Virus record (IMG/VR): IMGVR_UViG_3300025736_000003
DNA: 25,992 nt
Source of the DNA: a virus
Strand: one strand, 5' to 3'
In this document: positions 7,920 through 23,304 of the stretch, piece by piece
Numbering within the stretch: position 1 is the first letter of the stretch
How the letters are laid out: every line of letters begins with the position of its first letter
Program-made: the position numbers and the translations under genes
The notes under the pieces: model-generated
Told to the model about the DNA's origin: nothing
Databases searched by the model: none
What the model saw: only the letters and a program-made list of their open reading frames with translations

Positions 7920-8276
7920 TTATTTGATGGCCGCAATATATAAAGCATTCAACTTAGTCTCGTTAAAACTTCTCTTAGTCTTCCCATTAATAACTTTCTC
8001 TTTAAAATCCCTACCCGTCCAATCTCTAGCATTAGTTACTTCCTTATCACAAAGTTTAGCTACCTCATATTCAAAATCATCGTCGATATTCATATCGGGT
8101 TCATCTAAATATAATTGCATACTTTTCCCACCACAATCAAAAGTTACTACTCCTTCATGTCTTGTATTTGTATCAACTGGTTTTGGGGTAAAAGTTGCTT
8201 TATCTAAAAGGGTTACTCCAGCAACGGCTACACCAATCATCATTATTGCCATCAAAACAATTATTTGTTTTTTCAT
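7920..8276 (-). CDS. Secreted protein (118 aa)
   Basis: N-terminal MKKQIIVLMAIMMIGVAVAG signal-peptide-like segment. Confidence 0.5.
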   Translation of the reverse strand: MKKQIIVLMAIMMIGVAVAGVTLLDKATFTPKPVDTNTRHEGVVTFDCGGKSMQLYLDEPDMNIDDDFEYEVAKLCDKEVTNARDWTGRDFKEKVINGKTKRSFNETKLNALYIAAIK

Positions 8277-8277
8277 T

Positions 8278-10089
8278 TTAATTTACCTCCCTAATATATT
8301 TATAAACCCAAACTCCGTTACAAATAGAATCATCCAATCCTAATCTTGAACTCCCACTCATATATCTTACAACACCTTTAGCAGTATTATTAAATATAAA
8401 GTTTTCCATTGTCCATTCAACTCCTTCGTTTTGACAAGCCGCCTCAAAATAAACCGTTTCTGCCTGATTTGTTTCACAATAATTTCCACTCCAATTCATT
8501 TCGCTATATTGAAAATTTGGAATGGCTGAAAAACAAGTCCCACCAGTATTATTCAAATAAACATTATTGAATCTTACAATATGATTTGGGTCTGCATAGT
8601 TTCTCCAAAATTGTTTTATTCCATAGCTATTTGTATTTAGCATTGTAACATTATTACCCTCGACAATAGTGTTTTCACTTCTAGGAAATATTGCTATTCC
8701 AGTCGTTCCAGTATTAATCCCATAAATTGTATTGTTAATAACTGAGGTATCTTTATTTGAATTAGTCGAGCCTGTCCCTTGAATCTGTATCCCACTTCGT
8801 CCATTATAAGAAATGTAGATAGTATTATTTATTATATCATTTCTATTTGAAATAAGGGCGGCTCCAAAAACTATTGGATTTCTGTTTCCTGTTGTGTTAA
8901 TCCAATTATCTCTTATAATATTATCATTGTGAGTTCCAGTATTAAAATGTATAATACCATCTTGAATTTTGTTATTTTTAACTATATTATTACTTGCCCC
9001 GTTGTAGATACTTATAGAGTTAGCAATTCCGAAAAAGTTATTTTTTTCTATCAGATTATTATTATTATTTGTATGAAAACTTATTCCATTTGAAATACCC
9101 GTCAAGGTGTTATTAATATAATTATTATAAGAACAGCTTGAATAACATTCTATATTATCAGTCCCCCCCGTGAAGGTTGTTACATTATTTCCAGTAATAT
9201 TTGTATGAATTACACCAACCATATAAATTCCGTTTTGGGTAGTTCCACCGTTGGCAGAAGTAACATTATTATTATTTATGTTTTCATAATCCCCTCTTAA
9301 ATAAACGGGATAATTATTGTTTCCAGTATTTCCAGCCTTAACATTACAATTTTGCAAAGTATTTCTATCAGAACCATACGCCATATAAACTCCATATCTT
9401 GAACTTGAATAAGTTGTTCCGTAAGTTATATCATATCCATCGCAATCAAGAATTATATTGTCTCCAGTAAAAGTCATACAAGTTCCTGTCGATGAAACAC
9501 TTACGTTCAATTTATAATTTTGGTTGCTTGTTGCGAAAGTAGAACAGGCTGTCACATTTGTATAAGCTAAATTCATTCCGTCTAAAGTTTGCTTAAATTT
9601 TAGAGTTAAAGTTTTCTTATCTTTGCTCAAATCCCAAGAGCAATTTATCAAACACTCTTTATCAAAATCGAAGATTTGTCTGAATTCATTCCATTCATCC
9701 TTAGGATTCTTTTTATAAGTATATGCGGATAGCGTCTTAAAATCAGGATTAATTTCTTCAAGCAAAATTATATCCGAATCACTTTTTAAAGTATAAATGA
9801 AATCTTTTAATGAATCACTTTTTGTTGTTGGTTTAATAATATATTTTCCTTTCTCTTCTATAAAATCTAAATCATAAGATTTTGAAGATAAAAAGGTATC
9901 TTCTTTAAGTTCTATGTTCGCACTATTCCAATCGGTATCAAAAACTATTTTATTGCTATCCTTACTAATTAATGTTATACTAGAAGATATATCTTCTCCA
10001 ATATTTGAATCTAAATCACTTCCAAAGATTAAAGGTAGAATACCAATTAACAATATTAGAATAGAAAAATATATAATTTGTTTTTTCAT
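8278..10089 (-). CDS. Secreted right-handed parallel beta-helix repeat protein (603 aa), receptor-binding/adhesin- or depolymerase-like
   Basis: Signal peptide MKKQIIYFSILILLIGILPLIFG. Many about 22-aa repeats of the form NNxI.G.N.....GI (NNIVKNNKI, NIIRDNWI, NDIINNTIYIS, SVINNTIYG, NTIVEGNNVT), typical of pectate-lyase-fold beta-helices. Dense NxS/T sequons. Confidence 0.65.
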   Translation of the reverse strand: MKKQIIYFSILILLIGILPLIFGSDLDSNIGEDISSSITLISKDSNKIVFDTDWNSANIELKEDTFLSSKSYDLDFIEEKGKYIIKPTTKSDSLKDFIYTLKSDSDIILLEEINPDFKTLSAYTYKKNPKDEWNEFRQIFDFDKECLINCSWDLSKDKKTLTLKFKQTLDGMNLAYTNVTACSTFATSNQNYKLNVSVSSTGTCMTFTGDNIILDCDGYDITYGTTYSSSRYGVYMAYGSDRNTLQNCNVKAGNTGNNNYPVYLRGDYENINNNNVTSANGGTTQNGIYMVGVIHTNITGNNVTTFTGGTDNIECYSSCSYNNYINNTLTGISNGISFHTNNNNNLIEKNNFFGIANSISIYNGASNNIVKNNKIQDGIIHFNTGTHNDNIIRDNWINTTGNRNPIVFGAALISNRNDIINNTIYISYNGRSGIQIQGTGSTNSNKDTSVINNTIYGINTGTTGIAIFPRSENTIVEGNNVTMLNTNSYGIKQFWRNYADPNHIVRFNNVYLNNTGGTCFSAIPNFQYSEMNWSGNYCETNQAETVYFEAACQNEGVEWTMENFIFNNTAKGVVRYMSGSSRLGLDDSICNGVWVYKYIREVN

Positions 10090-11619
10090 CTAACAGCCTC
10101 CATAAAATATTCCAGTATCATTATATTTAGTAGTTCCAATACAAGCAAATTCTTCTACATATACAGCTTCGGTCATATTAACATTAGCTCCAATTTCAAA
10201 AATCCCATCGCCTGTCTCTGGATATAATTTTAAGTTTGGTGCATTATTCTTTAAATCAAATTCCCAATCAATAGTAGTAGTGTCATCAACAATATCATAT
10301 AAGCTAAATAGCCCAGGTTGTATTAGAGAATTATAATGAGTGCCCGTTGTCCAATCTGTGAAATCTGTTGCGTCTGTAACAAATAATATTGGAGACCCTG
10401 CAATCGCATCCATAAATCCATAAAAATAATTCCCAGAAATTCCATATCCTTCTATATCCCAATCCCCAGTAGCAGTCGAGCTACCGTCTGATTTCCAATA
10501 ATTAGAACTTCCATTCCAATTCCCATTAAAATAATCTGCTGTTATATTTGCTGTAGTTGTTATATCATTATCTTTAAAATTAACATCACCATCAGCTTCA
10601 ATAACCATTCTTTCATTCGAATATCCATTTGTATAGAATGCTAAGTCTGTTGCTACTTCTGTCCCCATTGAAAATCTCCCGTCGTTATATCCATAATAAC
10701 TAAAAATAAAATCTGTTGGAGAATAAACATCATTATAAAATAATCCTGTCCAATAACTTGCATCTGTATTTTGGTGAACTTCAAATGGTGCATAATTTAC
10801 ACTTGTTGTTTCACTACCCATTAAAAAACTTCCAGCAGTATTTGTTACACTTAATCCTGTTGATGATACACTTCCAGTTATATTAGAGTTTCCACTTACT
10901 TCTAAATCTCCTCCTATGTCTGCGTCGTCACCGACAAACAAATCATCCCAAGATATAATATCACCAATATTAGTTTCTATGTTTCCTGCTATAGCATAAA
11001 TATCTCCACCAGCAGAAGTTATTGCCCCGTTGGCACTAATAATTCCACTCGAAGTTATATTATCGAAAATTGAATTACCAATTACTTCTAATGTTCCATA
11101 GAACTTACTCGTTTGTAAATTGCCAATAGTTCCAACAAAGAAATTATTTCCGTTTAAAAAATTAATATATGTATTTCCACCGTCAAGAATCAAATCTGCT
11201 AATCCATTTGTAAAAATAGCTTCTCCAAAAATTCCATGATATAGTGAGAAGTCTGTATCAATATTATTACTTATTGTTAAATTATTTGATGTAAATGCTC
11301 CACCATTAATAATATCATTCCCACCCATATCAATATCTCCGGCCATTGTGCATCCGGTTAAAGCACACCACAAAGCATTTCCAAAAGATGTCAAATATGT
11401 TTCGCTAATAGTTAAGATTCCTCCGACGTTGTTGTGCTGGGTGGAATCAACACCTGTTAGAGCACCTATATTTGTTATCCAATTATTTGATGCATTAACA
11501 AAAGCTGTATTATTATCAAAAGGTATAGGGGGTGAATTTAAATCTATACCAATTATACCATCAACACCAGCACTAGAAAAACCAATCATTAAGATTAGCA
11601 ATAAAACCGAGTATTTCAT
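10090..11619 (-). CDS. Secreted Gly/Asn/Thr/Asp-rich repeat protein (509 aa), fibre/adhesin-like
   Basis: Signal peptide MKYSVLLLILMIGFSSAG, followed by low-complexity Gly-rich repeats (GGDLEVSGNSNITGSVSSTG...). Confidence 0.55.
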   Translation of the reverse strand: MKYSVLLLILMIGFSSAGVDGIIGIDLNSPPIPFDNNTAFVNASNNWITNIGALTGVDSTQHNNVGGILTISETYLTSFGNALWCALTGCTMAGDIDMGGNDIINGGAFTSNNLTISNNIDTDFSLYHGIFGEAIFTNGLADLILDGGNTYINFLNGNNFFVGTIGNLQTSKFYGTLEVIGNSIFDNITSSGIISANGAITSAGGDIYAIAGNIETNIGDIISWDDLFVGDDADIGGDLEVSGNSNITGSVSSTGLSVTNTAGSFLMGSETTSVNYAPFEVHQNTDASYWTGLFYNDVYSPTDFIFSYYGYNDGRFSMGTEVATDLAFYTNGYSNERMVIEADGDVNFKDNDITTTANITADYFNGNWNGSSNYWKSDGSSTATGDWDIEGYGISGNYFYGFMDAIAGSPILFVTDATDFTDWTTGTHYNSLIQPGLFSLYDIVDDTTTIDWEFDLKNNAPNLKLYPETGDGIFEIGANVNMTEAVYVEEFACIGTTKYNDTGIFYGGC

Positions 11620-11942
11620 TACTCAAACCTTCCTCTACTCATAAAAAACCATATACCAGATAAGGTTGTAACACCAGTTACAATCAATAGGATAGGGAGT
11701 GTTATTAGCCCAGCTTTAGTAGTCATTACCAAGCTTAATAAAACACAGGATAATGATGCTAGTGTAGCCCATTGTGGCATATCTGCATAACCGGATCTCT
11801 TACTTTGCATTATAGATCCTCTAAGAAAAATTAACATCCATGTAAAAAATAAAATCATAATTGGCAAAGCAGGTATTATCGTCGCAGTTCCTATTAATAC
11901 TTCATCTGGAGTCGTCCCATTTGGAAATTCAAATGTTGCCAT
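11619..11942 (-). CDS. Small polytopic membrane protein (107 aa)
   Basis: Three hydrophobic helix-length segments in the translation. Confidence 0.5.
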   Translation of the reverse strand: MATFEFPNGTTPDEVLIGTATIIPALPIMILFFTWMLIFLRGSIMQSKRSGYADMPQWATLASLSCVLLSLVMTTKAGLITLPILLIVTGVTTLSGIWFFMSRGRFE

Positions 11943-11943: not shown

Positions 11944-12375
11944 CTATTCGGGTGATCTCCCTAACCATGCTTTAATTGTGAAATATCCAATAATAAAAGT
12001 TATCATTGTTACAAATGTTATGGCAATAAAACTAAATTCCCTACCAAATATTATAAAGAACCCAGTATTAAATGAAGAGATAGCTAAACTCATCGCAGTT
12101 AATGGGCCTATTTTAAATTGTGCACCAGTTGATGAATGTTCGTCACCACTTTCAAGTGTCGATTTAAATAATATTTCTTGTGATGTTTCAGATTCTCCTG
12201 AAAGTTTTGTGATGTTGCTTTTTATGCCGGTTTCTAAATTAGCATATCTTGAATCCTGTGCTAAACTAATATCTGAATCGTTATCTATTGCAAATTGAGT
12301 CATAAATATTATTACAGAAACAATAAAAATACCTGTTAATGCTGCTCCAATAATCATTCTTGAATATCCAGCCAT
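11944..12375 (-). CDS. Membrane protein (143 aa)
   Basis: N- and C-terminal hydrophobic helices flanking an acidic middle region. Confidence 0.5.
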   Translation of the reverse strand: MAGYSRMIIGAALTGIFIVSVIIFMTQFAIDNDSDISLAQDSRYANLETGIKSNITKLSGESETSQEILFKSTLESGDEHSSTGAQFKIGPLTAMSLAISSFNTGFFIIFGREFSFIAITFVTMITFIIGYFTIKAWLGRSPE

Positions 12376-14888
12376 TATCTTTTACCACTCCCTTTAATTA
12401 TAACAACAACAACAGCTACGACAAACCATAATATTGTTGCCCCTGCCCCTACAATAGATGTTGAGTATGCTAAGTTTAATCCTATTAACAAAAATGCTCC
12501 AAGTATTAAAAATATACCCGTAATTAATGGATTATCACTTACACCCATACCGAACATTAATAATAATAATACAATAGATGAGAAGATTAAAACTCCTCCA
12601 TATTGATCCTTAGGATTATCTTTTAATAATATATAACCTTCCCTTCTTATATCTCCATTTAAAGCAATCGTCGCATATATTGTAGAGTTGCCAAATGATT
12701 CTGGTATAGTACATAATAGAGTTCCACCTGCAGCATTTAATAAATCAGAACATACAGAGGTATTACCAAAATTATCTATGAGTGTTACGTTCAACTGTAC
12801 AATATTACTAACACCACTAATTATCCCAAAAGTAGAACTTACAACCCTTGTATCTTTATCATAAGTTAAAGATGAGAAGAAATCTGATTCTGTAATTATA
12901 TCAAATAAATCTGTTCCTGTAATTAAAGCATTCAAATTAATTTCACATGAAGTTATAAGAGGATTTTGGCAATTAGCTATTACCTCAGTAAAGCTATCTA
13001 ATAGTTCACCATCTTTAATAAAAAACAAATTATATATAACATCGTTTGGAACTAAGTGTGCTATTGTAAAACCATTAGTACCACTCATAGGTATTTCTAT
13101 AGTTTTAAAAACACCTTCTTCAATATATTTTCTCTGGACTTGAACTATTAAATCAGAAACTGGTATAAAATCTTGCCCCTTATATGTTATTTTAAATTCC
13201 TGTCCTTCAGATTCTGCTAAGTTATATAATGTTATATTTTGTGATCTAGTAGAATTATCAAAAATAAAGTTTTGAACATTATAAAATTCCACAAATTTAT
13301 CTATTGCTGTATATTCAATTACTGCATCCATCCTTAAAGTAGAATTACCAACAGAATTATTCATACAAACTCTAGCAGGATTTATTTTTGAATATTCTTT
13401 TGAAAATTGTATTATTTCCTCAGAGTTATCAGGAAAAGAAAATCTCATATCAAGTTTTATAGAAGAATTTTCTGTTACTCCATCTATTTGTAATTGTGTT
13501 GTTTCATCTACAATGGTAAAATTAAAGATTTGATTAGTAAAAACTGAGCAATCATCAATACTAATTTCAAATATAGTTTGATTTTGTGTAGTAGAATTTT
13601 GTATAAAACCGCTTTCTAAAGAAACACTCCAATAGAATGGCACAACTTCCGTACCATTAACTTGTTGTATATTTTTATTTATTGTTGCGAACCATTCGTC
13701 GTCGTCATATTCCGTAAATGTTGTAGGGTAAGACGTTCCATTATAAACGAATAAAACATTAGTTAATCTCTCAAATGTTATAACTGATATATTTATATTA
13801 AAATTAGAAGTATCACCCTCTAATACATTAGGGGAAAACTCTTCGTTTAAAACACTAAATGGAACAACATTAAAAGTAAAATTATTTTGTGCAAACGTAC
13901 AATTATTGAATGAAGAGTTCTCATAACAAATTTCTGCATTCCAAATATAATTTCCCAAAACAAATTCGTCGATAAACAATGATTCGTTAAATGTTCTATT
14001 TGGAGAAAGAGATATTGTAGTTTGGTTATGTATAGAACTATCATTATTCCATATAAAGTAAGTTACATTTGTTACATTATAATCACCAATAACATCCCCA
14101 CTAACTGTAAAATTTGCACCTATATCTGATATTGTTGAATCATTTACAGGAGAAATTAATTTTATTAATCCACCACCTGAATATGGTAATGCATCACTTG
14201 AATTATAAAGTTCTATTATTTCATCAGGTGTTAGAATTTTATTAAAAATTCCAACCTCATCAATATCTCCGTTCCAAGCATTTGTATATCCAACATTATA
14301 TCCTATCCCAGTTTTCGTACCAACAGTACCCTGCCCTGTCATATTCTCTTTCCAAATAGTATCAATATACATTTGTGTATTAGTTCCATCCCATACTAAC
14401 GTAGCCATATGCCAAGCGTTATCAAATAATCCTAAAACACCTGAGGTATCCCAAGCTATCCCTTCTTGTAATAATCTTATATCTGAACTATAACTTGCAG
14501 ATGTAGCAATACAATTCCCCTTCCCTGTATCACCATTGATACAAAGTAATCTACCTTCCGATCCAGGCTGTGTTGTAGATTTAAACCAAACATTTGCAGA
14601 ATAATCTCCTGTCTGAACACCGCTTGTTCCATAAAGTGAATTACCAGAACCATCATAATTACGTCCATCTATTAATATCCCTGAGGAATTTGTTGTTCCA
14701 GAATTTGTTAAATTATTTGAAGAAACTATATCTGTTAAAACATTGTTATCTAATTTATAATAAGAAGTTATATTATCATTCCAATCAAAACCACTAACTT
14801 GTGTTGAAAACGTAAGGATGAAACATACTACCACTATCAAAAAGATTGATGAGGATGGCTTATACGAAGAGTTTTTTTCAGTTTTCAT
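12375..14888 (-). CDS. Large surface (spike/envelope-like) protein, 837 aa, with N-terminal signal peptide and C-terminal membrane anchor
   Basis: Signal-like N-terminus (SIFLIVVVCFILTFSTQVSG) and about 70 C-terminal hydrophobic residues ending in KGSGKR. Numerous NxS/T sequons. A possible concanavalin-A/LamG-like beta-sandwich near the N-terminus is my inference only. Confidence 0.6.
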   Translation of the reverse strand: MKTEKNSSYKPSSSIFLIVVVCFILTFSTQVSGFDWNDNITSYYKLDNNVLTDIVSSNNLTNSGTTNSSGILIDGRNYDGSGNSLYGTSGVQTGDYSANVWFKSTTQPGSEGRLLCINGDTGKGNCIATSASYSSDIRLLQEGIAWDTSGVLGLFDNAWHMATLVWDGTNTQMYIDTIWKENMTGQGTVGTKTGIGYNVGYTNAWNGDIDEVGIFNKILTPDEIIELYNSSDALPYSGGGLIKLISPVNDSTISDIGANFTVSGDVIGDYNVTNVTYFIWNNDSSIHNQTTISLSPNRTFNESLFIDEFVLGNYIWNAEICYENSSFNNCTFAQNNFTFNVVPFSVLNEEFSPNVLEGDTSNFNINISVITFERLTNVLFVYNGTSYPTTFTEYDDDEWFATINKNIQQVNGTEVVPFYWSVSLESGFIQNSTTQNQTIFEISIDDCSVFTNQIFNFTIVDETTQLQIDGVTENSSIKLDMRFSFPDNSEEIIQFSKEYSKINPARVCMNNSVGNSTLRMDAVIEYTAIDKFVEFYNVQNFIFDNSTRSQNITLYNLAESEGQEFKITYKGQDFIPVSDLIVQVQRKYIEEGVFKTIEIPMSGTNGFTIAHLVPNDVIYNLFFIKDGELLDSFTEVIANCQNPLITSCEINLNALITGTDLFDIITESDFFSSLTYDKDTRVVSSTFGIISGVSNIVQLNVTLIDNFGNTSVCSDLLNAAGGTLLCTIPESFGNSTIYATIALNGDIRREGYILLKDNPKDQYGGVLIFSSIVLLLLMFGMGVSDNPLITGIFLILGAFLLIGLNLAYSTSIVGAGATILWFVVAVVVVIIKGSGKR

Positions 14889-16349: not shown

Positions 16350-17131
16350 GGCCAAATACCTCCTGTTTTTTGTTGTGTTTCCATAACTGGATTTCCCCTT
16401 GATTCGGATATGTGTGTATGTTGTCTTAATGTTCTCCTTTCCTCTCCCTTCCATGCCCTTAAATAAGTTGCATGAATAGCATCTTGGATAACCCTAACAG
16501 TTATCATATATCTTTTTAATTTACTTTTTATTATTTGTTGTTTTATTTTTTCTAATTCTTCCTCTACTCTATCTTCAATCTTTGCGAATTTTTCATTAAT
16601 AATTTCATCTCTATTATATTCAATACCAGCAACTTCTTTAGCATAGGCGGATATTTCAGTTTGCCTTTCAATTCTATCCTTAAGTACATCAATACATTGT
16701 TTAACAGTTGGAGAAATAAATACTTTATCATATTCCATAAATATAGTATCAATCAAATCATTAGTAAAATCCCACATCTTCTTTCTTATTGTAGCATCGT
16801 CAAAATTAGATAATAATAAATTTTTGTTCAAATACCAGCAGATAGTATTTCTTATTAAATGTATTCCATACTCAGTAAAAATAACCATATCATCATTAGT
16901 AGGAGCTTTCCATATTAACTTCCCATCTACCCCAGGTTCTAATGAATATCCTTTTAATAAATAATCGATCCTTGATATTTCATCACTTAAATCTAGTTGC
17001 TCTCTAGTTATTGATTTCTCTTCTGGTTGCATAAATGTTTCTTGCTGTGCTCTAACTAAGGCTTGTTGTCCAGCTTCTATCTTTGCTGCATCCAATTCTT
17101 GTTGATATTTATCTATTAAATCTTGATCCAT
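16334..17131 (-). CDS. Hypothetical soluble protein (265 aa)
   Basis: ORF in the operon; acidic and coiled-coil-like at the N-terminus; no motif recognised. Confidence 0.45.
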   Translation of the reverse strand: MDQDLIDKYQQELDAAKIEAGQQALVRAQQETFMQPEEKSITREQLDLSDEISRIDYLLKGYSLEPGVDGKLIWKAPTNDDMVIFTEYGIHLIRNTICWYLNKNLLLSNFDDATIRKKMWDFTNDLIDTIFMEYDKVFISPTVKQCIDVLKDRIERQTEISAYAKEVAGIEYNRDEIINEKFAKIEDRVEEELEKIKQQIIKSKLKRYMITVRVIQDAIHATYLRAWKGEERRTLRQHTHISESRGNPVMETQQKTGGIWPWGKK

Positions 17132-17133: not shown

Positions 17134-20100
17134 TTACTTCTTTTTCTTTGTCGATTTAGTTTTCTTCTTCGGTGCTTTTCTTTTTGCTGCTTGGATTTCT
17201 ATAGTTTCTGTTTTCTTACTCAATCTCTTACTTCTTCGTTCAATAAATAATTTTCCTAAAGGTGTGTCTTTCTCTCTAAACCCTTTTGGTGCTTTTGGAG
17301 TTTTGCCAGGTGAACTTAATCTAAATGTTGCAGCTAAAGTTTTTGAGGTTACTCTTTTACCAAATTCGAATGCTTGTCGCTGTGTTCTAAAACTTCCAAC
17401 ATTAAAGAACTCTCCACCTCTACGAATTTGAACACCGAAGCCAACTCTTGGTGTTTTTGTGCTTGGTGTTTTTGGAATAATTGGAGGGAATATTATGTTT
17501 ATCTTTCCTATTATTTTGGGTGGTCTTGGTTGTGGTGGTTGAGGAAATCCACCAAATCCAATTATATTAGGTTGTGCAAATTGTTGCCTTTGGAGTTGTC
17601 GCTGTAATTGTTTCTGATTTAATTTTTGATCTTGTCTCTGAATAACTCTACTTATTACTTTCTCTACAGGTTGTTGAAATTGTTTAGACACTAAACGAGA
17701 ATCAGCCCTAGAACTTATCTTCTTTAATTGAGCAACCTTTACACCAAGTATAGAATTTATATCAAGATTAAATGATTGTGATAACTTAGGCTGAATTATT
17801 TGTATAGGAACATCTGTAACTGATACTTCTTGTTTTCCATTTAATAAAGAAGCTATACCTAACCCACCCAACCCTAAACTATCACGAGTACCGCTAATTT
17901 CTAATCCAGGAATAAATGGAGCAGCCCCACCAGATACAGAAGGTACTTTTAATATTTCTTCTGTTGGTTGTACAAATGTAGTTCTTGGTAAATTCAATTC
18001 CTCTCCAAATGCAAACTTAGATGGAACAGGGATTTGTTCTTGAATTTGTTTTGTTGGTTTTGTCTTACTAAAGAAGTCTGTTATTTGTCCCTTCCTAGCT
18101 GCTATCTTTGATTCCTGTGAACTTGTCAAAGATTTAACAACGTCATCAAACTGTTCCCTTGCTAAAGCCCTATCAATAACATCTACTTTTAACTTCCTAG
18201 CTTTTACAACTTTAGAACCAGCTTTTTGTAATGCCTTTAATTCTTTAGATGCAGGATTAATAAATAGGGTTGTAGTTCTCTGACCTGAAAATGCAGTTAT
18301 ATCTCTTTGTATGTTTGGCGTTATTACTTTTGTTAATAGTTTTTGTTTACCCACTTGTCCGAAAAGTGTTTGGTCGAATGTTTTATCAACTCCAAATTCT
18401 ATTTCTTGTGCAATCCTTCTTCTTATTTGAATATTACCCTTAGATCCAACTCTCTTTATTAATCCCTTTCTTTCACTAACTTGAATAATATCCAAGAAAG
18501 ATTTCTCTTTTTGTATGGTTTGTTTTATTCCTTTAGATATATCTCTACCAACTAATGTTGTTGATTCAAATTCTCCAGTAACAAGTTTTGATCTAAGAGA
18601 TACAGGCTTATCTGATAATATTAAATCTCCAACGTCGTCTGTAAGTTTACTACTCTTCTTAACCTTATCACCACTCTTAACAATTAATTCATTAAATGTT
18701 ACACCTGGTTGTCCGAACTGTTTATCAATCTTTAATTTATCTACTTTTGATTTTAAAAATTTTAATTCTGGCAAATCTCCTTTATTCAAACTTTGCTCAA
18801 AAATAGATTTCCCCTTCTTAAATAATTTAACAGTTCCTTTACCACCTTTAGTTACTTCAGTAATTTTAGTTATATCGCCAAACTTAATTGTTTCTTTTAG
18901 AACTCCATCACCTGCGACCTCCGCAAACCCTTCAAACTTTTGTAGTTTCTTACCAATCTTTCTCAACTCAATAACCTTACCGGTTTGCCTAGCTTCAGGT
19001 ATAAATTGTGTTTCTAATATTCTACCTTTTGTTTTAGAACTAACTATGGATTTAGATAGATCATCCACTTTGGAAATCTCTAATCTTGGTTTAGTTATTT
19101 TTAATTTAGAAGTTTCTTTAGCAATCCTTGTTTCTAATATTAATGCTTTTCTTTCTGGGATAGATACAAATTCTTGTAACTTCTTTACCCTACCTGCCTT
19201 AATAGCCTTAACTATACCTCTAGAACCAACCCCTATAGCAAGTCCAACCTCTAATGGATTTTCAACTGCAAAATCAAAGAACGATTCTGGTCCACCAAAA
19301 GCACCCTTACCAACTTGTGCCTCTAATCCTTTAGCAGCAACCTCACCAACGAATGCTCCAGGCAAAGTAAAACCTAATAGTTCAGTACCAACACGAACAG
19401 CCTTACCACCAAACTCTGCCCTTTTTTCAAACCCAGCTTTCTTTTCTATCCCAGGTATATCTGATTTTAATATATCAGTAAATGATTGTTCAACCTCTCC
19501 TAAGAAAATCTCTTTACCAAATCCAATCAAACCTTCACCTTGAAATTTAGATATTGGAACATCTCTAATCTGACCTGGTAATCCTAACCTAACAGTTGGT
19601 CCACCGCCTAACTGGAATGTAGTAGTGTCTCCTTCTTTAACTTCTGTAACAGTTCCTCCACCTGCTTTAAACTGTGACAACTTTAATGAGAAATCTTCCT
19701 GACTTAATCCTTCTTGTAATACTGCTTCTGTTAATGAACTAAACTCTTTTAATTGTCTATCAATTATTCTCTTAGCTTCTGCTATTTGTCCTATTGGAGT
19801 ATCTCCTAGTGATGGTAATGTTTCTCTTAATGGTACGACAACCTTTTCTCTAAAAGCACCAACACCTGACTCAACACCACTAATGATTGGCTGAACACCA
19901 AACTCACTTATTGGAGTTATAAACTCTTTCTCAACTGCCCTAAATACTTTTGATTCACTAAGTGGTATTACAACTTCTTTTTCAAATGTCTTTGCAATAT
20001 CTTTAGATGCCAACCCAACTTCACCAGCGACAATCTTTCCACCAAAACTTAAGGGAGATAAATTTTGTAACTTACTAACTTCAACATCTCTAATCTGTCC

Positions 20101-20787
20101 AGGTAATCCAAACCTGATAGTTTCTCCTGGTTGTTTAGATTCTATGATTTCTTTTGCTTTCCTTAAATCCTGTGCAACAATACCTATTGGAGTTTCTCCA
20201 AGTGATGGGAGTTTCTCTCTTAATGGAACAACTAATTTTTCTCTGAATGTAGAGACACCCTTCTTAACTACTTGAGTAACATCTACTTGTTTTGGTTTTC
20301 CTGTTTTAATTCTAGCAACCTTACTAACAACTTTCTCAACCACACCTTTTTCCGGTGCAGCTTTTACCTCACCAGTAGTACCTGATTCTGCTCTGGCGGT
20401 TTTACCGGCCTGTGAAACCTCAGCTCTTTCTCTCGCTAAAATAATATTTCTTGAAGATGATTCTGAAGATAAAATTCCTGACTGTTTATTTTGTCTTTGT
20501 AGTTCTTCTATCCTCTGTTGTCTAACTGTAACAAGTTCAGCTCTTTTTTGGTTCTCAGCCTGTACCCTCACAGCTTCTTGTTGTTGTCGTGATGCTTGGC
20601 TTTGCCTATCTAAAGCTTCTTGGGAAATAGATTGTCTTCCCCTAGAACTCCTACCTCTACTTGAGCTACTACCACTTGAAATACCTGATTCTTTTACTGG
20701 GCCTTTATAATTTGGTGCAATTATCTTTAACTTTTTTGCAGCATCTTCTCTACTTTTTTTTAATGTTCTTTCAAACTGACTAGCCAT
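17134..20787 (-). CDS. Giant charged protein with long internal repeats (1217 aa), putative virion/structural or scaffold protein
   Basis: Internal protein repeats FREKLVVPLREKLPSLGETPIG / FREKVVVPLRETLPSLGDTPIG and RFGLPGQIRDVEVSKLQ / RLGLPGQIRDVPISKFQ, mirrored at DNA level (about 20090-20230 versus 19560-19860). Lys/Gln/Glu-rich, no TM segment. Confidence 0.6.
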   Translation of the reverse strand: MASQFERTLKKSREDAAKKLKIIAPNYKGPVKESGISSGSSSSRGRSSRGRQSISQEALDRQSQASRQQQEAVRVQAENQKRAELVTVRQQRIEELQRQNKQSGILSSESSSRNIILARERAEVSQAGKTARAESGTTGEVKAAPEKGVVEKVVSKVARIKTGKPKQVDVTQVVKKGVSTFREKLVVPLREKLPSLGETPIGIVAQDLRKAKEIIESKQPGETIRFGLPGQIRDVEVSKLQNLSPLSFGGKIVAGEVGLASKDIAKTFEKEVVIPLSESKVFRAVEKEFITPISEFGVQPIISGVESGVGAFREKVVVPLRETLPSLGDTPIGQIAEAKRIIDRQLKEFSSLTEAVLQEGLSQEDFSLKLSQFKAGGGTVTEVKEGDTTTFQLGGGPTVRLGLPGQIRDVPISKFQGEGLIGFGKEIFLGEVEQSFTDILKSDIPGIEKKAGFEKRAEFGGKAVRVGTELLGFTLPGAFVGEVAAKGLEAQVGKGAFGGPESFFDFAVENPLEVGLAIGVGSRGIVKAIKAGRVKKLQEFVSIPERKALILETRIAKETSKLKITKPRLEISKVDDLSKSIVSSKTKGRILETQFIPEARQTGKVIELRKIGKKLQKFEGFAEVAGDGVLKETIKFGDITKITEVTKGGKGTVKLFKKGKSIFEQSLNKGDLPELKFLKSKVDKLKIDKQFGQPGVTFNELIVKSGDKVKKSSKLTDDVGDLILSDKPVSLRSKLVTGEFESTTLVGRDISKGIKQTIQKEKSFLDIIQVSERKGLIKRVGSKGNIQIRRRIAQEIEFGVDKTFDQTLFGQVGKQKLLTKVITPNIQRDITAFSGQRTTTLFINPASKELKALQKAGSKVVKARKLKVDVIDRALAREQFDDVVKSLTSSQESKIAARKGQITDFFSKTKPTKQIQEQIPVPSKFAFGEELNLPRTTFVQPTEEILKVPSVSGGAAPFIPGLEISGTRDSLGLGGLGIASLLNGKQEVSVTDVPIQIIQPKLSQSFNLDINSILGVKVAQLKKISSRADSRLVSKQFQQPVEKVISRVIQRQDQKLNQKQLQRQLQRQQFAQPNIIGFGGFPQPPQPRPPKIIGKINIIFPPIIPKTPSTKTPRVGFGVQIRRGGEFFNVGSFRTQRQAFEFGKRVTSKTLAATFRLSSPGKTPKAPKGFREKDTPLGKLFIERRSKRLSKKTETIEIQAAKRKAPKKKTKSTKKKK

Positions 20788-21137
20788 CAATAAACTCTAA
20801 CTAAAAATGTTTTCCCATAATCTTTCGTAACCCACGTTCTGGATTCTATTAAAGAATAAATGTTATCACCATCTTTTAATTTAATTCCTGTATCAATATC
20901 ATTTTTTTGTGGTTGTCTTGAAAAAGTATTTGGTGCTAATCCTAACTTAATCAAACCCACATAATTATTATTATCACCAATATCAATCTTTATATTATCA
21001 AAATCAACAACATCTTTATTATGCTCAACAGCACCATAGATTCCTACAAAAGAACCAATTAATAATACAGATAAGATAGCCGCCACCGAGTATAAAACTT
21101 TAGGGTTGTTTAATAATTGTTTTACTTCTTTATCCAT
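20787..21137 (-). CDS. Small membrane-anchored protein (about 116 aa)
   Basis: I placed the start at the ATG at 21137 (MDKEVKQLLNNPKVLYSVAAILSVLLIGSFVGIYGA, with an N-terminal TM or signal anchor). The track start at 21158 is a GTG lying inside the upstream repeats. Confidence 0.45.
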   Translation of the reverse strand: MDKEVKQLLNNPKVLYSVAAILSVLLIGSFVGIYGAVEHNKDVVDFDNIKIDIGDNNNYVGLIKLGLAPNTFSRQPQKNDIDTGIKLKDGDNIYSLIESRTWVTKDYGKTFLVRVY

Positions 21138-21139
21138 TT

Positions 21140-21175
21140 GCGTTACAGCGTTACGCACTTGCGTTACAGCGTTAC
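21140..21175. promoter_or_regulatory. Four GCGTTAC heptamers (two 15-bp direct repeats) immediately upstream of the ATG at 21137: candidate operator
   Basis: gcgttacagcgttac at 21140-21154 and again at 21161-21175, lying between a TATA-like AT box and the start codon. Confidence 0.45.
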
Positions 21176-21206
21176 ACTAATTAAGAATTATTACTATTTA
21201 AATATA

Positions 21207-21350
21207 TCATTTCTTTGATTCATCTATTAGAATCCATTTTGTAAGAAACTCATTAATAATTGGTGATAACTTTTCTCCTTCCTTTAATCTTCCTAATACT
21301 GTTTCAACAATATCATCTTCTAGTGCTAATGAATATTTCTTTAATGTCAT
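21207..21350 (-). CDS. Ribbon-helix-helix (CopG/Arc-like) small regulator candidate (47 aa)
   Basis: Manual translation MTLKKYSLALEDDIVETVLGRLKEGEKLSPIINEFLTKWILIDESKK: a short N-terminal beta-strand segment followed by two helices, in the usual RHH layout. Sits directly upstream of the GCGTTAC repeats. Confidence 0.4.
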   Translation of the reverse strand: MTLKKYSLALEDDIVETVLGRLKEGEKLSPIINEFLTKWILIDESKK

Positions 21351-21406
21351 ATCTTAATTAGCAAAGCAAAGTTTAAATACTTACTTACTTACTAATTAAT
21401 GTAAAG

Positions 21407-21859
21407 ATGGCGATGGATGATAATAAAGAAACTACATTTAATGAAGCAGTTTTGAAGATGCAAAGGATTCATATTCTACAACAAGAAATTAATCTACTTA
21501 GAATTAATCTACTTGCATGGAATCTTGAATATAGTAAATATAACTATGATGTTGTAATATCTGATTTAATAAGTTTATGTTATGAGGTTAGGCCTCTTAT
21601 GAAAATAGAGGAAAGAAATGAATTTAGTTTGCTTAAGGAGTTAGTTGATGATTTAATATCATACAAACCTATATTTAAAAAAATTAATACTTCTAATTTC
21701 TCAGGTAAAAATAATAATGAAAGTATCGACACTAATAATTGGAATATGTTAAGGGGTGTTATATTTAAATTTGAGGACTTTGCTAGGGATCAAGTTGATA
21801 TACATGGGCTGTCTGCTCCAAAGAAAAAGGATGCCTCTAGGGCTGCGGTTGATCTATAA
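21407..21859 (+). CDS. Hypothetical protein (150 aa)
   Basis: First gene of the plus-strand block; its stop overlaps the next start (TAATG). Confidence 0.5.
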   Translation: MAMDDNKETTFNEAVLKMQRIHILQQEINLLRINLLAWNLEYSKYNYDVVISDLISLCYEVRPLMKIEERNEFSLLKELVDDLISYKPIFKKINTSNFSGKNNNESIDTNNWNMLRGVIFKFEDFARDQVDIHGLSAPKKKDASRAAVDL

Positions 21860-22872
21860 TGAAATTCTTAGAAAAAGAGTTCCCAAAGGGTTCGTTCCCA
21901 AAACAACAAACAGATGGTGCATATATAAATCAAACATTAGCAGATAACTTAAATGTATATGCTAAACAGATTGTAAAAGATATGCACTTCTTAATAATTA
22001 TATCAGGTAACGACGCTGTTGGAAATGGTAAATCTACTTTGGCAACACATGTTGGTGCATACTTAACTAATAAAATAAATGAATTACATGGTATAAATAA
22101 TACCTTCACTTCTAGCAATGTTGCACTAAGGGCGAAAGATTTAGTTAAGCAAAGTTTTGATAACCCACAATACTCAGTTAATGTTTTAGATGAGGGTGAC
22201 GATTTAACAACTCATGGTATGAAGCAATCTGCAGTTGAGCTTAAGAGATACTTCCGTAAATGTAGGCAACTAAATCAAATCTTAATATTAATATTACCAT
22301 CCTTCTTTGAACTCCCAAAATTCTATGCATTAGCAAGAAGCCATTCTTTAATTAATGTTAAATTTCATGGAGAGTTTGAGCGTGGTTCATTCGATTTCTA
22401 TGGACCAAAGAGTAAAAAGAAATTATATTTGAAAGGAAAAAGAGAGTGGGATTATGACGCTGCATCTCCAGACTTCTATGGATCTTTCTTCTCTACTTAT
22501 ACCTTCTTCCCTGGCTTGAATGATGAGATTGCTGCTTATAAAAAGAAGAAGTATACTGATATGATTGATGATGCTGATGAGGATCACACACAACTATCAC
22601 CTATACAAGTAGAACGAATGTTAAAGGCTAAATTGTTTAAGCAGGTGTATAATAATATCCCCAATATTACTATACCCATATTGTCTAATGCGTTTGGCGT
22701 ATCAAGTAGGACTGGTGATAGATATTTATCCAACGAATATGACGAAAAAATAAAAATCCTAAAACACGAAATCGACGCCCCGCCGACTAATACTAATAAT
22801 ACCATAAGGGATTTGGATGATGTGGTGAGTCCAGAGAAGCATCCAGGGGTTATAGTAAGGACTATTAGTTAG
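21859..22872 (+). CDS. P-loop NTPase with C-terminal HTH-like segment (337 aa), AAA+/DnaA- or IstB-like architecture
   Basis: Walker A GNDAVGNGKST around residues 51-61, Walker B VNVLDEGDD around 108-116, and a C-terminal ITIPILSNAFGVSSRTGDRYLS helix-turn-helix-like segment. Confidence 0.6.
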   Translation: MKFLEKEFPKGSFPKQQTDGAYINQTLADNLNVYAKQIVKDMHFLIIISGNDAVGNGKSTLATHVGAYLTNKINELHGINNTFTSSNVALRAKDLVKQSFDNPQYSVNVLDEGDDLTTHGMKQSAVELKRYFRKCRQLNQILILILPSFFELPKFYALARSHSLINVKFHGEFERGSFDFYGPKSKKKLYLKGKREWDYDAASPDFYGSFFSTYTFFPGLNDEIAAYKKKKYTDMIDDADEDHTQLSPIQVERMLKAKLFKQVYNNIPNITIPILSNAFGVSSRTGDRYLSNEYDEKIKILKHEIDAPPTNTNNTIRDLDDVVSPEKHPGVIVRTIS

Positions 22873-22989
22873 TAGTTAAACCCAATCAAATAAAGATAGT
22901 TACATTGTAACACAGTGAACGCACCTTTATAATAAAACTTTCTTATATAGTATTATGTTTATAACTAAATTCTCAAAGGAGGTTTTAAA

Positions 22990-23304
22990 ATGAGAAACAA
23001 TAAGAAAGGACAGAGTGCTAATATTGGTGCAATGATAGGAGGTATTATAGGTTTGATATTTCTAGTTGTTGTAGGATTTGTATCTTTAGATATTTTGACT
23101 GGTGCTGGATTGCTAACAAGTGATTCTGCATTTGATAATGCTACAGATAGATTAGTTGGTAATCTGACGGCTGGTGTAGACAAGGTATCTGTAAAGATTC
23201 CAATAATGTTTACTATCACTGTAGCTGTTCTATTACTTGGATTGATTGTATTCCTTGTCATCAGGGCAAGACAAGCACAGCAAGTTCAAGGCGGAACTAT
23301 TTAA
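22990..23304 (+). CDS. Small hydrophobic two-helix protein (104 aa), candidate major virion/membrane structural protein
   Basis: Canonical AGGAGG 8 nt upstream of the ATG, preceded by TATA-like boxes. Two hydrophobic segments (IGAMIGGIIGLIFLVVVGFV and IMFTITVAVLLLGLIVFLVI). Confidence 0.5.
   Translation: MRNNKKGQSANIGAMIGGIIGLIFLVVVGFVSLDILTGAGLLTSDSAFDNATDRLVGNLTAGVDKVSVKIPIMFTITVAVLLLGLIVFLVIRARQAQQVQGGTI

What the first reader, a model, noticed from the sequence alone, without database searches (positions are those of the whole stretch)
7920..23304. Virus-like element with a membrane/surface-protein module and no recognisable tailed-phage genes
A 13-kb co-directional operon encodes signal-peptide proteins, a beta-helix repeat protein, an anchored 837-aa spike-like protein, several polytopic membrane proteins and a 1217-aa repeat protein. 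Next to it sit a Walker ATPase and a 104-aa two-helix hydrophobic protein behind the strongest RBS in the window. I could not recognise an HK97-type capsid, portal, terminase, tail or conjugation gene in any translation. That architecture resembles membrane-containing non-tailed viruses (pleomorphic or spindle-type) or an integrative plasmid, and may represent an undescribed lineage.
Basis: partly seen in the sequence, partly recalled or inferred. Interest (0 to 1): 0.8.

Follow-up and report, generated by a model that had tools for sequence, protein, structure and literature searches.

The report
Putative spindle-shaped virus of DPANN archaea
The window is the complete 25.9-kb circular genome of an uncultivated archaeal virus, most likely lemon-shaped and infecting tiny Woesearchaeota-type archaea. 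It is a little-known lineage of a known kind of virus, not a new kind of element.

Summary
A tightly packed 13.2-kb minus-strand operon encodes secreted, anchored and polytopic membrane proteins and a 1217-aa basic protein. Beside it lie a Walker ATPase and a 104-aa two-helix hydrophobic protein. Pfam and PHROGs find no tailed-phage or conjugation genes.

The window carries an exact 127-nt terminal repeat, so the element is a complete circle of 25,865 bp.

The ATPase is a full-length homologue, including its C-terminal HTH, of the ATPase of the spindle-shaped haloviruses His1 and BLv25 (hhalign 95.9%, E 5.5e-9). It is unrelated to the pleolipovirus ATPase VP8 (0.2%).

ATPase followed by a hydrophobic hairpin protein is the same gene order as in BLv25. 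The literature calls this pair the signature module of spindle-shaped archaeal viruses.

The hairpin protein is conserved across the family, sometimes as two paralogues. Its sequence similarity to known capsid proteins is only suggestive (38-46%).

A relative lies integrated in a 150-kb Woesearchaeota MAG contig, next to a tyrosine integrase.

Best reading: a temperate or chronic spindle-type virus of Woesearchaeota (about 0.6). Spindle-shaped DPANN viruses have been reported, but I could not check membership in those groups.

The parts
1..127 (.). Exact direct terminal repeat, identical to 25866-25992. It is the closure overlap of a circular (or terminally redundant) 25,865-bp genome.
   Evidence: family D2, 100% identity, spacing 25865
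899..1549 (-). 216-aa C5 cytosine DNA methyltransferase-like protein
   Evidence: Pfam DNA_methylase E 3.7e-4, below the curated cut-off
4576..6189 (-). 537-aa D5-like (SF3) primase-helicase, the replication protein
   Evidence: PHROG 864 'DNA primase' E 6e-64; Pfam DUF5906 E 2e-17 and D5_N. Homologues in L008, L016 and L014
6186..7328 (-). 380-aa protein with a C-terminal Zn ribbon, translationally coupled to the helicase. Function unknown.
   Evidence: weak Zn_ribbon_Top1
7920..8276 (-). 118-aa protein with a signal-like N-terminus; last gene of the 13-kb operon
8278..10089 (-). 603-aa secreted protein with 14 N-x-S/T sequons and a weak right-handed beta-helix match. Candidate glycan-binding or depolymerising fibre.
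   Evidence: Pfam Beta_helix E 0.0015, sub-threshold
10090..11619 (-). 509-aa secreted, very acidic (pI 4.1) protein rich in Gly, Asn and Thr. Candidate fibre or adhesin; its N-terminal 100 aa are conserved in L009 and L011.
11619..11942 (-). 107-aa polytopic membrane protein
11944..12375 (-). 143-aa membrane protein with an N-terminal TM and a C-terminal TM pair; conserved in L018, L011 and L029
12375..14888 (-). 837-aa candidate tail-spike or adhesin. It has an N-terminal anchor, a LamG domain, three predicted beta-sandwich domains, three C-terminal hydrophobic helices and 31 N-x-S/T sequons.
   Evidence: Pfam Laminin_G_3 E 2.8e-11. AF2 of residues 416-837, pLDDT 78.6. PDB Foldseek gives only generic tandem Ig/FN3/MG domains and SlaB. 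45 homologues.
14885..15427 (-). 180-aa polytopic membrane protein with an N-terminal K-G-Q motif; conserved in L018, L016 and L011
15424..15630 (-). 68-aa basic soluble protein (pI 10.0)
15627..16349 (-). 240-aa protein with a signal peptide, a Cys-rich ectodomain and 4-5 TM helices. The mechanical ORF extends to 16454; gene callers and the RBS favour the start at 16349.
16334..17131 (-). 265-aa soluble helical protein, conserved in all sampled relatives with enough sequence. Function unknown.
17134..20787 (-). 1217-aa very basic protein (pI 10.1, 18% K+R, no Cys, no TM) with one duplicated motif set and a conserved C-terminal region. Candidate internal DNA-associated protein.
   Evidence: (D4). 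Homologues of 857-1245 aa in L018, L009 and L011.
20787..21158 (-). 123-aa single-pass membrane protein, first gene of the 13-kb operon. A 21-nt tandem repeat overlaps its 5' end.
21207..21350 (-). 47-aa ORF in the divergent intergenic region, called as a gene in sister contigs. It reads like a ribbon-helix-helix regulator, but this is unverified.
   Evidence: no Pfam hit
21367..21396 (+). Promoter-like element AAAGTTTAAATA(CTTA)n, repeated in inverted orientation at 24941-24970
   Evidence: (I2, 90% complementary)
21407..21859 (+). 150-aa protein that always precedes the ATPase (start and stop overlap). The pair is conserved in all relatives sampled.
21859..22872 (+). 337-aa ASCE/AAA+-like ATPase with a C-terminal helix-turn-helix; homologue of His1 ORF16 and BLv25 ORF1
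22990..23304 (+). 104-aa hydrophobic alpha-helical hairpin protein, the candidate major capsid protein. It has its own TATA-like box and an AAGGAGGT RBS, an invariant N-L-T sequon on the loop and a K-K-G-Q leader junction.
   Evidence: Conserved in L006, L008, L027 and L029. Similarity to SSV1 VP1 and an MCP profile is only 38-46%.
23463..23693 (+). 76-aa highly basic protein (pI 10.9, 32% K+R) downstream of the hairpin gene. Candidate DNA-binding protein, in the same position as SSV1 VP2.
   Evidence: homologue in L011
23767..24936 (-). Operon of a 46-aa, a 232-aa and a 112-aa protein. The 232-aa protein has N- and C-terminal TM helices and is conserved in all longer relatives; the 112-aa protein is single-pass. 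The operon lies behind the second copy of the promoter-like element.
24941..24970 (-). Second copy of the promoter-like element
25489..25986 (-). 165-aa small serine recombinase (resolvase/invertase type)
   Evidence: Pfam Resolvase E 2e-26

Best explanation
The window is the complete circular dsDNA genome (25,865 bp) of an uncultivated archaeal virus of the spindle-shaped kind. Its host is most likely a Woesearchaeota-type DPANN archaeon.

Shown:
- The genome closes on itself.
- It carries a D5-like primase-helicase and a small serine recombinase.
- The ATPase with a C-terminal HTH is a full-length homologue of the ATPase of the spindle-shaped haloviruses His1 and BLv25.
- The ATPase is followed by a well-conserved ~100-aa protein made of two hydrophobic helices, joined by a loop carrying an invariant N-glycosylation sequon.
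- This pair recurs throughout a large metagenomic family.
- A relative is integrated in a Woesearchaeota MAG contig.

Inferred:
- The hairpin protein is the major capsid protein. It would enter the host membrane, lose a short leader at the K-G|Q junction (as SSV1 VP1 is cut at K-G|E), be N-glycosylated on the loop, and polymerise into the helical strands of a lemon-shaped shell. Its basic C-terminus would face the DNA.
- The genome would be condensed by the 76-aa and 1217-aa basic proteins.
- The HTH-ATPase, with its invariable 150-aa partner, would bind viral DNA and either start replication or deliver DNA to the assembly site. The literature is undecided between these roles.
- The 13-kb operon would build the tail and adsorption apparatus. 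The heavily glycosylated 837-aa protein (LamG, beta-sandwiches, three-helix anchor) would act as tail-spike, analogous to SSV19 VP4. The 603- and 509-aa secreted proteins would be fibres. The small polytopic proteins would be lattice-embedded adaptors.
- Release is probably by budding or chronic production without lysis. Persistence would be as an episome or by recombinase-mediated integration.
For: Complete, widespread element:
- Circularity: exact 127-nt terminal overlap.
- The identical ATPase occurs on 5 contigs from 5 samples, one of them 25.4 kb.

ATPase homology:
- A1 vs His1 ORF16 alone: 71%, E 3.7e-5 over 240 columns including the HTH.
- A1 vs BLv25 ORF1 alone: 65%.
- A1 vs the two aligned: 95.9%, E 5.5e-9, 241 columns.
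- A profile search of 1.84 billion representatives finds 1518 clusters. Some of those among the top 150 hits (A1 E<=1e-29) also hit His1 or BLv25 directly at 33-36 bits.
- Negative controls: SSV1 B251 2%; HRPV-1 VP8 0.2% with no phmmer hits.

Hairpin protein and context:
- The gene order ATPase then MCP is the same as in BLv25.
- The literature states that the hydrophobic alpha-helical MCP plus the AAA+ ATPase form the signature module of spindle-shaped viruses (bioRxiv 10.1101/2025.02.15.638363). ICTV families are defined on the MCP and the ATPase (PMC12451623).
- The hairpin protein has two helices and 55 close homologues with an invariant N58 (N-L-T sequon; L59 and T60 in >=90%) and R92.
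- It has divergent homologues in other branches: 95.4% and 97.3%, occurring as two paralogues in L029 and L011. Two MCP paralogues are also reported for Wyrdviridae and DNSVs and for Eurekaviridae.
- The leader junction NKKG-QSANIGAMIG resembles SSV1 VP1 LTKG-EATNIGVLLG and BLv25 TRGQ..ATNLVVG.
- The gene has a strong RBS and its own TATA-like box.
- A basic 76-aa gene lies downstream, as VP2 does in SSV1.
- The tail-spike analogy rests on beta-sandwiches plus three C-terminal helices, compared with the beta-sandwich plus three-helix bundle of SSV19 VP4 and B210 (PMC9351363).

Host:
- L014 is a 150-kb Woesearchaeota MAG contig. Cellular genes are followed by a tyrosine integrase, a D5-like helicase, the 125-aa partner gene and an ATPase 68% identical to the window's.
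- Other hits fall in Woesearchaeota and Pacearchaeota bins.
- GC is 0.31.

No tailed-phage or conjugation families were hit.
Against: - Sequence homology of the hairpin protein to known MCPs (SSV1 VP1 and VP3, His1 VP21, BLv25 MCP, NYM1 MCP) is not established. The best results are 38-46% probability over helix 1 only, and PDB holds no significant match.
- The 837-aa model hits only generic Ig-like folds, not SSV19 VP4.
- The ATPase family also occurs in plasmids and satellites of haloarchaea according to the literature, so the ATPase alone does not prove a virus.
- Hairpin capsid proteins also build rod-shaped or bacilliform archaeal virions (PMC10866085), so the shape is inferred, not shown.
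- The host link rests on MAG binning and one integrated relative, not on this genome itself. Two hits lie in bins labelled Thermoplasmatales and Bacteroidales.
- No particle, proteomic or CRISPR-spacer evidence exists.
Confidence: 0.6

Rival explanations
1. A virus with the same gene set but another virion architecture. It could be a bacilliform or rod-shaped particle built from the helical hairpin protein (Clavaviridae-like). It could also be a pleomorphic membrane vesicle carrying the 837-aa protein as spike and the small hydrophobic proteins as envelope proteins.
For: Alpha-helical hairpin capsid proteins also form rod-shaped and bacilliform virions (APBV1, SMV1; PMC10866085). Sequence similarity of the hairpin protein to spindle MCPs is only 38-46%. 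The element has many polytopic membrane proteins and a signal-plus-anchor glycoprotein, which also suits an enveloped particle.
Against: The ATPase is homologous to the His1/BLv25 type and not to the pleolipovirus VP8. No protein of HRPV-1 is matched. The 837-aa protein ends in three helices, not the single anchor of VP4-type fusion proteins. The ATPase-MCP adjacency matches a spindle-shaped virus. A genome size of 26 kb lies within the spindle-virus range quoted in PMC10866085.
Confidence: 0.17
2. A non-viral integrative plasmid, or a satellite of a spindle-shaped virus. It would carry the His1-type ATPase and a cargo of surface and membrane proteins, for example for cell-cell contact in ectosymbiotic DPANN archaea. 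It would spread by vesicles or by hijacking a helper virus.
For: The same ATPase class is a core gene of PL6-family plasmids and of small satellite-like circles in haloarchaea. The element has plasmid-like replication and recombination genes: a D5-like helicase and a serine recombinase. IMG/VR holds only 5 contigs with this ATPase. DPANN genomes commonly encode large LamG-type surface proteins (my own knowledge).
Against: The element encodes its own conserved hairpin protein with strong expression signals, sometimes in two paralogous copies, plus small and giant basic proteins. The described satellites are 2.7-9 kb, whereas here about 17 kb of conserved membrane and structural genes travel with the ATPase across relatives sharing only 34-60% ATPase identity. 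There is no relaxase, VirB4 or coupling protein. The ATPase has no match in PLSDB.
Confidence: 0.13
3. A highly diverged tailed phage or archaeal head-tailed virus whose capsid, portal and terminase are too divergent to be recognised.
For: Most proteins have no family match at all. A 1217-aa protein might be taken for a tape-measure protein.
Confidence: 0.02

Closest known systems
Halspiviridae (His1) and Halorubrum spindle-shaped virus BLv25
   Same: The ATPase with a C-terminal HTH is homologous over its full length (95.9%). The ATPase gene is directly followed by a two-helix hydrophobic MCP gene, as in BLv25. Both carry a cluster of small 2-3-TM proteins and signal-plus-anchor glycoproteins, as annotated in His1.
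   Different: - The window has no protein-primed family B polymerase and no inverted terminal repeats. The genome is circular with a D5-like helicase.
- The genome is twice as large.
- No other protein is detectably similar.
- MCP sequence similarity is not significant.
- The host is non-halophilic and low-GC, probably Woesearchaeota.
Fuselloviridae (SSV1, SSV19)
   Same: - Circular dsDNA genome.
- Hairpin MCP with a cleaved leader (VP1 K-G|E junction against K-G-Q here) and an N-x-T sequon on the loop.
- A small basic protein gene lies after the MCP genes (VP2).
- The large glycosylated tail-spike ends in a beta-sandwich plus a three-helix bundle (PMC9351363).
   Different: - The B251 ATPase matches only at the P-loop (2%).
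- There is no SSV-type tyrosine integrase; the window has a serine recombinase instead.
- Fold search gives no match to SSV19 VP4.
- There is no endo-mannanase domain; the window protein carries a LamG domain instead.
- The host domain branch and temperature range differ.
Other metagenomic spindle-shaped virus families: Thaspiviridae, Nipumfusiviridae, Wyrdviridae, Eurekaviridae, Huangdiviridae and nanohaloarchaeal DNSVs
   Same: These were assigned by the same criteria: a hydrophobic hairpin MCP with a glycosylation site on the turn, plus an ATPase. Several have two MCP paralogues and genomes of 20-38 kb. DNSVs also infect a DPANN lineage and integrate.
   Different: No detectable sequence similarity to the one genome I could fetch, NYM1. 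tblastn of the ATPase or the 232-aa protein against 50,697 virus records finds nothing. The 1217-aa basic protein and the conserved 150-, 232- and 265-aa proteins have no described counterpart.
DPANN virus groups of Wu, Liu & Ni 2024 (Nat Microbiol 9:3362; Zhurong-, Gonggong-, Houtu-, Houyi-, Nuwa-, Kirin- and Ditingvirus)
   Same: Same host superphylum. From my memory of the abstract, that study reports head-tailed, tailless icosahedral and spindle-shaped DPANN viruses and unclassified elements.
   Different: Unknown. The paper and its genomes are not held, so identity with one of these groups can be neither shown nor excluded.
Pleolipoviridae (HRPV-1)
   Same: A non-tailed archaeal virus with a membrane-protein module, a signal-plus-anchor glycoprotein and an ATPase. 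It can be temperate.
   Different: The VP8 ATPase is unrelated (0.2%). No VP3-, VP4-, ORF6- or ORF7-like protein is present. The genome is 2-3 times larger.

Membership tests
Spindle-shaped archaeal viruses (informal group defined by MCP + ATPase) | AAA+/ASCE ATPase of the type conserved in spindle-shaped viruses | tested here: met
   hhalign A1 vs His1 ORF16 + BLv25 ORF1: 95.9%, E 5.5e-9, 241 columns. Bridging homologues. Controls were negative.
Spindle-shaped archaeal viruses (informal group defined by MCP + ATPase) | Small hydrophobic alpha-helical hairpin major capsid protein | tested here: inconclusive
   The architecture is met: two hydrophobic helices, a glycosylation sequon on the loop, a basic C-terminus, position next to the ATPase and conservation across the family. 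Sequence homology to known MCPs is only 38-46% over helix 1. No structure prediction was run on it.
Spindle-shaped archaeal viruses (informal group defined by MCP + ATPase) | Lemon- or spindle-shaped virion | not testable with these tools
   Needs electron microscopy of particles.
Halspiviridae | [quoted passage not shown] | tested here: not met
   The window has a direct 127-nt terminal overlap, i.e. a circle. No terminal inverted repeat is among the 13 pairs found. No DNA_pol_B family was hit; the replication protein is a D5-like helicase.
Fuselloviridae | B251-type ATPase, VP1/VP3 MCP and an SSV-type tyrosine integrase | tested here: not met
   B251 gives only a P-loop match, 2%. VP1 gives 38% and VP3 0.5%. 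The recombinase is a serine resolvase type.
Pleolipoviridae | Core module VP3, VP4, ORF6, ORF7 and the VP8 ATPase | tested here: not met
   VP8 vs A1 gives 0.2%. phmmer of all window proteins against HRPV-1 ORFs finds nothing significant. No PHROG hits.
Caudoviricetes (tailed viruses) | HK97-fold capsid protein, portal and terminase large subunit | tested here: not met
   No hit in Pfam, PHROGs or NCBIfam for any protein. This was tested by sequence profiles only; fold-level tests were done for two proteins.
Conjugative or integrative plasmids of archaea | VirB4/TraG-type transfer ATPases or a relaxase | tested here: not met
   No such Pfam families were hit. The only non-helicase ATPase is of the His1 type. 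No PLSDB match.
DPANN virus groups of Wu et al. 2024 | Shared gene content with the published genomes | not testable with these tools
   The paper is not held. Its group names occur only as citations. No match in the GenBank phage/virus collection.
Archaeal class III (prepilin-like) signal peptide proteins | [KR]-G followed by Q, A or S and then a hydrophobic helix, cleaved by a prepilin peptidase | tested here: inconclusive
   The motif is present and conserved in the 104-aa and 180-aa families. There is no Pfam or NCBIfam pilin or class-III-signal hit. Cleavage cannot be tested here.

The most novel reading that the evidence does not exclude
This genome represents a family-level, so far unclassified lineage of spindle-shaped viruses that is widespread in Woesearchaeota- and Pacearchaeota-type DPANN archaea. 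Its ATPase family alone spans about 1500 50%-identity clusters in metagenomes, yet only 5 contigs are found in IMG/VR.

The lineage would have features not described for spindle viruses:
- a giant (0.85-1.25 k-aa) basic internal protein;
- capsid-protein paralogues with large glycosylated insertions in the hairpin loop;
- capsid and minor proteins matured at a prepilin-like K-G|Q site by the host class III signal peptidase.

The last feature would link spindle-virus capsid maturation to the archaeal type IV pilin pathway.
Probability: 0.25. Interest if true: 0.7.

Novelty: new member of a known kind. Interest (0 to 1): 0.5.

Why it matters
DPANN archaea make up a large share of archaeal diversity, and almost nothing is known experimentally about their viruses.

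- A complete, closed genome with a defined signature (His1-type HTH-ATPase, its 150-aa partner and a conserved hairpin protein) gives a handle for finding this group. Current virus-detection pipelines largely miss it: 5 IMG/VR contigs against roughly 1500 ATPase clusters in metagenomes.
- It extends the ATPase-plus-hairpin module of spindle-shaped viruses to non-halophilic DPANN hosts. That supports the view that this virion type is ancient and pan-archaeal.
- The conserved unknown proteins (150, 232, 265 and about 1200 aa) and the K-G|Q junction are concrete targets for structural and biochemical work.

Tried and rejected
- **Known virus records.** Megablast of the whole window and tblastn of the ATPase and the 232-aa protein against 50,697 phage/virus records found nothing. 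tblastn of the ATPase against PLSDB found nothing.
- **Family libraries.** Pfam, PHROGs and NCBIfam on all proteins gave only LamG, resolvase, D5-like helicase, a weak beta-helix and a weak MTase.
- **RNA genes.** No Rfam family and no tRNA.
- **Fold search of the 837-aa C-terminal half.** Only generic tandem Ig-like domains; SSV19 VP4 and B210 were not recovered.
- **Hairpin protein against known capsid proteins.** SSV1 VP3, His1 VP21, BLv25 MCP and a five-sequence MCP profile were not significant. Single-sequence controls were uninformative. The best PDB sequence hit is an inovirus coat protein at E 0.3.
- **Other comparisons.** The 150-aa family does not match His1 ORF18. NYM1 (Nipumfusiviridae) has no detectable homologue of the ATPase or the hairpin.
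- **Small ORFs.** My reading of the 47-aa and 57-aa ORFs as RHH and AbrB regulators got no Pfam support.
- **Literature.** The key paper on DPANN viruses (Wu et al. 2024) is not held. Two other DPANN virome papers say nothing on non-tailed types.
- **Rejected readings.** Pleolipovirus was rejected because the ATPase is unrelated. A conjugative plasmid was rejected because there is no transfer machinery.

Full report
**1. What is in the sequence**

The window (25,992 nt, GC about 0.31, no tRNA) begins and ends with the same 127 nt (1-127 = 25866-25992, 100% identical). It is therefore a closed circular, or terminally redundant, element of 25,865 bp. The finding's coordinates cover only part of one unit.

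The exact ATPase protein occurs on five contigs from five samples, including a 25.4-kb ENA contig with the same gene order. The element is a real, recurrent population and not an assembly accident.

**2. The observation**

Twelve minus-strand ORFs from 21158 to 7920 are packed with junctions of +2 to -16 nt.

- By hydropathy, the 118-, 603- and 509-aa proteins and the 240-aa form of the '275-aa' ORF start with signal-like segments.
- The 107-, 143-, 180- and 240-aa proteins are polytopic.
- The 837-aa protein has an N-terminal anchor, a LamG domain (Pfam E 2.8e-11), 31 N-x-S/T sequons and three C-terminal hydrophobic helices.
- The 1217-aa protein has no TM helix and no Cys, with pI 10.1. Its 'repeat' is a single duplicated motif set.
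- The beta-helix call for the 603-aa protein is sub-threshold.
- The RBS in front of the 104-aa gene is AAGGAGGT. It is strong but ties with four others.

Pfam, PHROGs and NCBIfam give no capsid, portal, terminase, tail or conjugation family.

**3. The rest of the genome**

- A D5-like SF3 primase-helicase (PHROG 864, E 6e-64) is coupled to a 380-aa Zn-ribbon protein.
- There is a C5-methyltransferase-like protein.
- There is a small serine recombinase (Pfam Resolvase, E 2e-26).
- A 30-nt promoter-like element containing AAAGTTTAAATA occurs twice in inverted orientation. One copy precedes the 150-aa/ATPase operon and the other precedes the 46/232/112-aa operon.

**4. The ATPase**

The ATPase has 188 close homologues, all unnamed and without Pfam domains, on contigs of at most 45 kb. 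A profile search of 1.84 billion representatives finds 1518 clusters at E<=1e-3.

AF2 (pLDDT 81) shows an ASCE core followed by a helical C-terminal domain. Fold searches are generic.

- Profile comparison with the ATPase of the spindle-shaped halovirus His1 (ORF16) aligns 240 columns end to end. The alignment covers Walker A and B, the sensor strand and the C-terminal helix-turn-helix (71%, E 3.7e-5).
- The BLv25 homologue alone gives 65%.
- The two together give 95.9%, E 5.5e-9.
- Several representatives that match the window's family among the top 150 hits (E<=1e-29) also hit His1 or BLv25 directly at 33-36 bits.
- Controls are negative: SSV1 B251 matches only at the P-loop (2%), and pleolipovirus HRPV-1 VP8 gives 0.2% with no phmmer hit.

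**5. The hairpin protein**

In BLv25 the ATPase gene is directly followed by the gene annotated as MCP. The window has the same order: ATPase 21859-22872, then the 104-aa gene 22990-23304 with its own TATA-like box and RBS.

The 104-aa family has 55 homologues at 59-88% identity. It has two hydrophobic helices, an invariant N58 (N-L-T sequon; L59 and T60 in >=90%) on the connecting loop and an invariant Arg just after helix 2.

Divergent homologues exist in other branches of the family:

- L027, 98 aa: 97.3%.
- L029, 103 aa: 95.4%.
- L029 and L011 carry two adjacent paralogues, one with an NxT-rich insertion of about 80 aa in the loop.

Two MCP paralogues are reported for several spindle-shaped virus families.

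The junction between the short N-terminal leader and helix 1 (NKKG-QSANIGAMIG) resembles the known processing site of SSV1 VP1 (LTKG-EATNIGVLLG) and the BLv25 MCP leader (TRGQ...ATNLVVG).

Formal homology to known MCPs is only suggestive: 38% to VP1 and 39-46% to a five-sequence MCP profile, over helix 1 only. VP3, VP21 and the BLv25 MCP are not significant. The MCP assignment therefore rests on architecture, conservation and context, not on sequence homology.

The literature calls the hydrophobic alpha-helical MCP plus the AAA+ ATPase the signature module of spindle-shaped viruses. Metagenomic families have been created on comparable evidence.

**6. The large operon**

AF2 of the conserved C-terminal half of the 837-aa protein (pLDDT 78.6) gives three beta-sandwich domains followed by three long helices.

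This parallels the beta-sandwich plus three-helix bundle by which SSV19 tail-spike VP4 and adaptor B210 are set into the capsid (PMC9351363). Foldseek returns only generic Ig/FN3/MG domains and the S-layer protein SlaB, so this is an analogy and not a demonstrated relationship.

Across relatives with 34-60% ATPase identity, the following travel together:

- the 150-aa partner of the ATPase;
- the 232-aa protein with two terminal TM helices;
- the 265-aa soluble protein;
- the 180-, 240- and 143-aa membrane proteins;
- the C-terminal half of the 837-aa protein;
- the C-terminus of the giant basic protein.

This is a conserved morphogenetic gene set, much larger than in the satellite circles that carry only the ATPase and/or MCP.

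**7. Host and lifestyle**

A scan of one genome per GTDB species found six loci.

The best is the end of a 150-kb Woesearchaeota MAG contig. There, cellular genes (DapB-like, MscS-like, methyltransferase, MarR-like, judged by reading the translations) are followed by a tyrosine integrase, a D5-like helicase, the partner gene and an ATPase 68% identical to the window's. The contig then stops. This is the signature of an integrated relative.

Other hits lie in Woesearchaeota and Pacearchaeota bins. Two lie in bins labelled Thermoplasmatales and Bacteroidales, on short contigs where mis-binning is plausible. L029 and L026 also carry tyrosine integrases. The window itself has a serine recombinase instead.

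**8. Conclusion and rivals**

- **Best explanation (about 0.6):** a complete genome of a temperate or chronic spindle-type virus of Woesearchaeota-like DPANN archaea.
- **Different virion shape (about 0.17):** the same genes could build a bacilliform or pleomorphic particle.
- **Plasmid or satellite with surface-protein cargo (about 0.13).**
- **Diverged tailed virus (about 0.02).**

The spindle-type option and the absence of tailed-phage genes hold. 'Membrane-containing' and 'undescribed lineage' are not established.

**9. Novelty**

The kind of virus is known, and spindle-shaped viruses of DPANN have been reported: nanohaloarchaeal DNSVs and, from my memory of its abstract, Wu et al. 2024, which I could not read.

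No deposited virus or plasmid record matches, and IMG/VR holds only five related contigs. I file it as a new member of a known kind, possibly a new family. Unexplained features are the giant basic protein, the loop-insertion paralogues and the prepilin-like K-G|Q junction.

Noticed in passing
window 1684-1975: A (TGACCC)x48.7 hexanucleotide array in a local GC-rich island (0.45). It is open in several frames, for example a Gly-Gln/Gly-His repeat ORF at 1665-1991 on the minus strand. Whether it codes for protein or acts as an iteron or origin is unknown.
   Followed up: partly
window 21367-21396 (+) and 24941-24970 (-): A near-identical 30-nt promoter-like element (AAAGTTTAAATACTTACTTACTTACTAAT) lies in inverted orientation in front of two different operons: 150-aa/ATPase and 46/232/112-aa. 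This suggests co-regulation.
   Followed up: partly
window 21130-21175: A 21-nt tandem repeat (2.2 copies, GCGTTACAGCG core) overlaps the 5' end of the 13-kb operon. It may be an operator site. A 47-aa ORF (21207-21350, minus strand) that looks like a ribbon-helix-helix protein lies next to it, but Pfam gives no support.
   Followed up: partly
window 119-217 and 734-832: An exact 99-nt direct repeat, 615 nt apart, next to the circular junction. It duplicates part of the 72-aa ORF region. It could be an assembly artefact, a recombination scar or an attachment-site-like sequence.
   Followed up: no
window 22990-23030 and 14885-15427; L011, L016, L018: A [KR]-G-(Q/A/M) motif immediately precedes the first hydrophobic helix in two unrelated protein families, the 104-aa hairpin and the 180-aa polytopic protein. 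It resembles archaeal class III (prepilin) signal peptides and the SSV1 VP1 cleavage site.
   Followed up: partly
L029 9751-10619; L011 14871-15829; L009 13355-14341: Relatives carry paralogous hairpin proteins in which the loop between the two helices holds NxT-rich insertions of 80 to about 250 aa. The capsid protein appears to be used as a scaffold for surface display.
   Followed up: partly
window 17134-20787; L011 5411-9148; L018 6640-9213: Giant basic proteins of 857-1245 aa share only a C-terminal motif (F.V..RR.G.F..(I/V)G....(R/K)QAF..G(R/K)). No homologue was found in Pfam, PHROGs or NCBIfam. In L011 the protein is extremely Lys/Arg-rich.
   Followed up: partly
L014 5391-6203 (Woesearchaeota MAG CAZLHJ010000001.1): The integrated relative uses a tyrosine integrase, whereas the window carries a small serine recombinase. 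Recombinase modules appear to be exchanged within the family.
   Followed up: partly
alignment A2 (104-aa family): The best, non-significant PDB sequence match is the inovirus If1 major coat protein p8 (E 0.3). It aligns over the loop and second helix, and both proteins have a hydrophobic helix followed by a basic tail.
   Followed up: no
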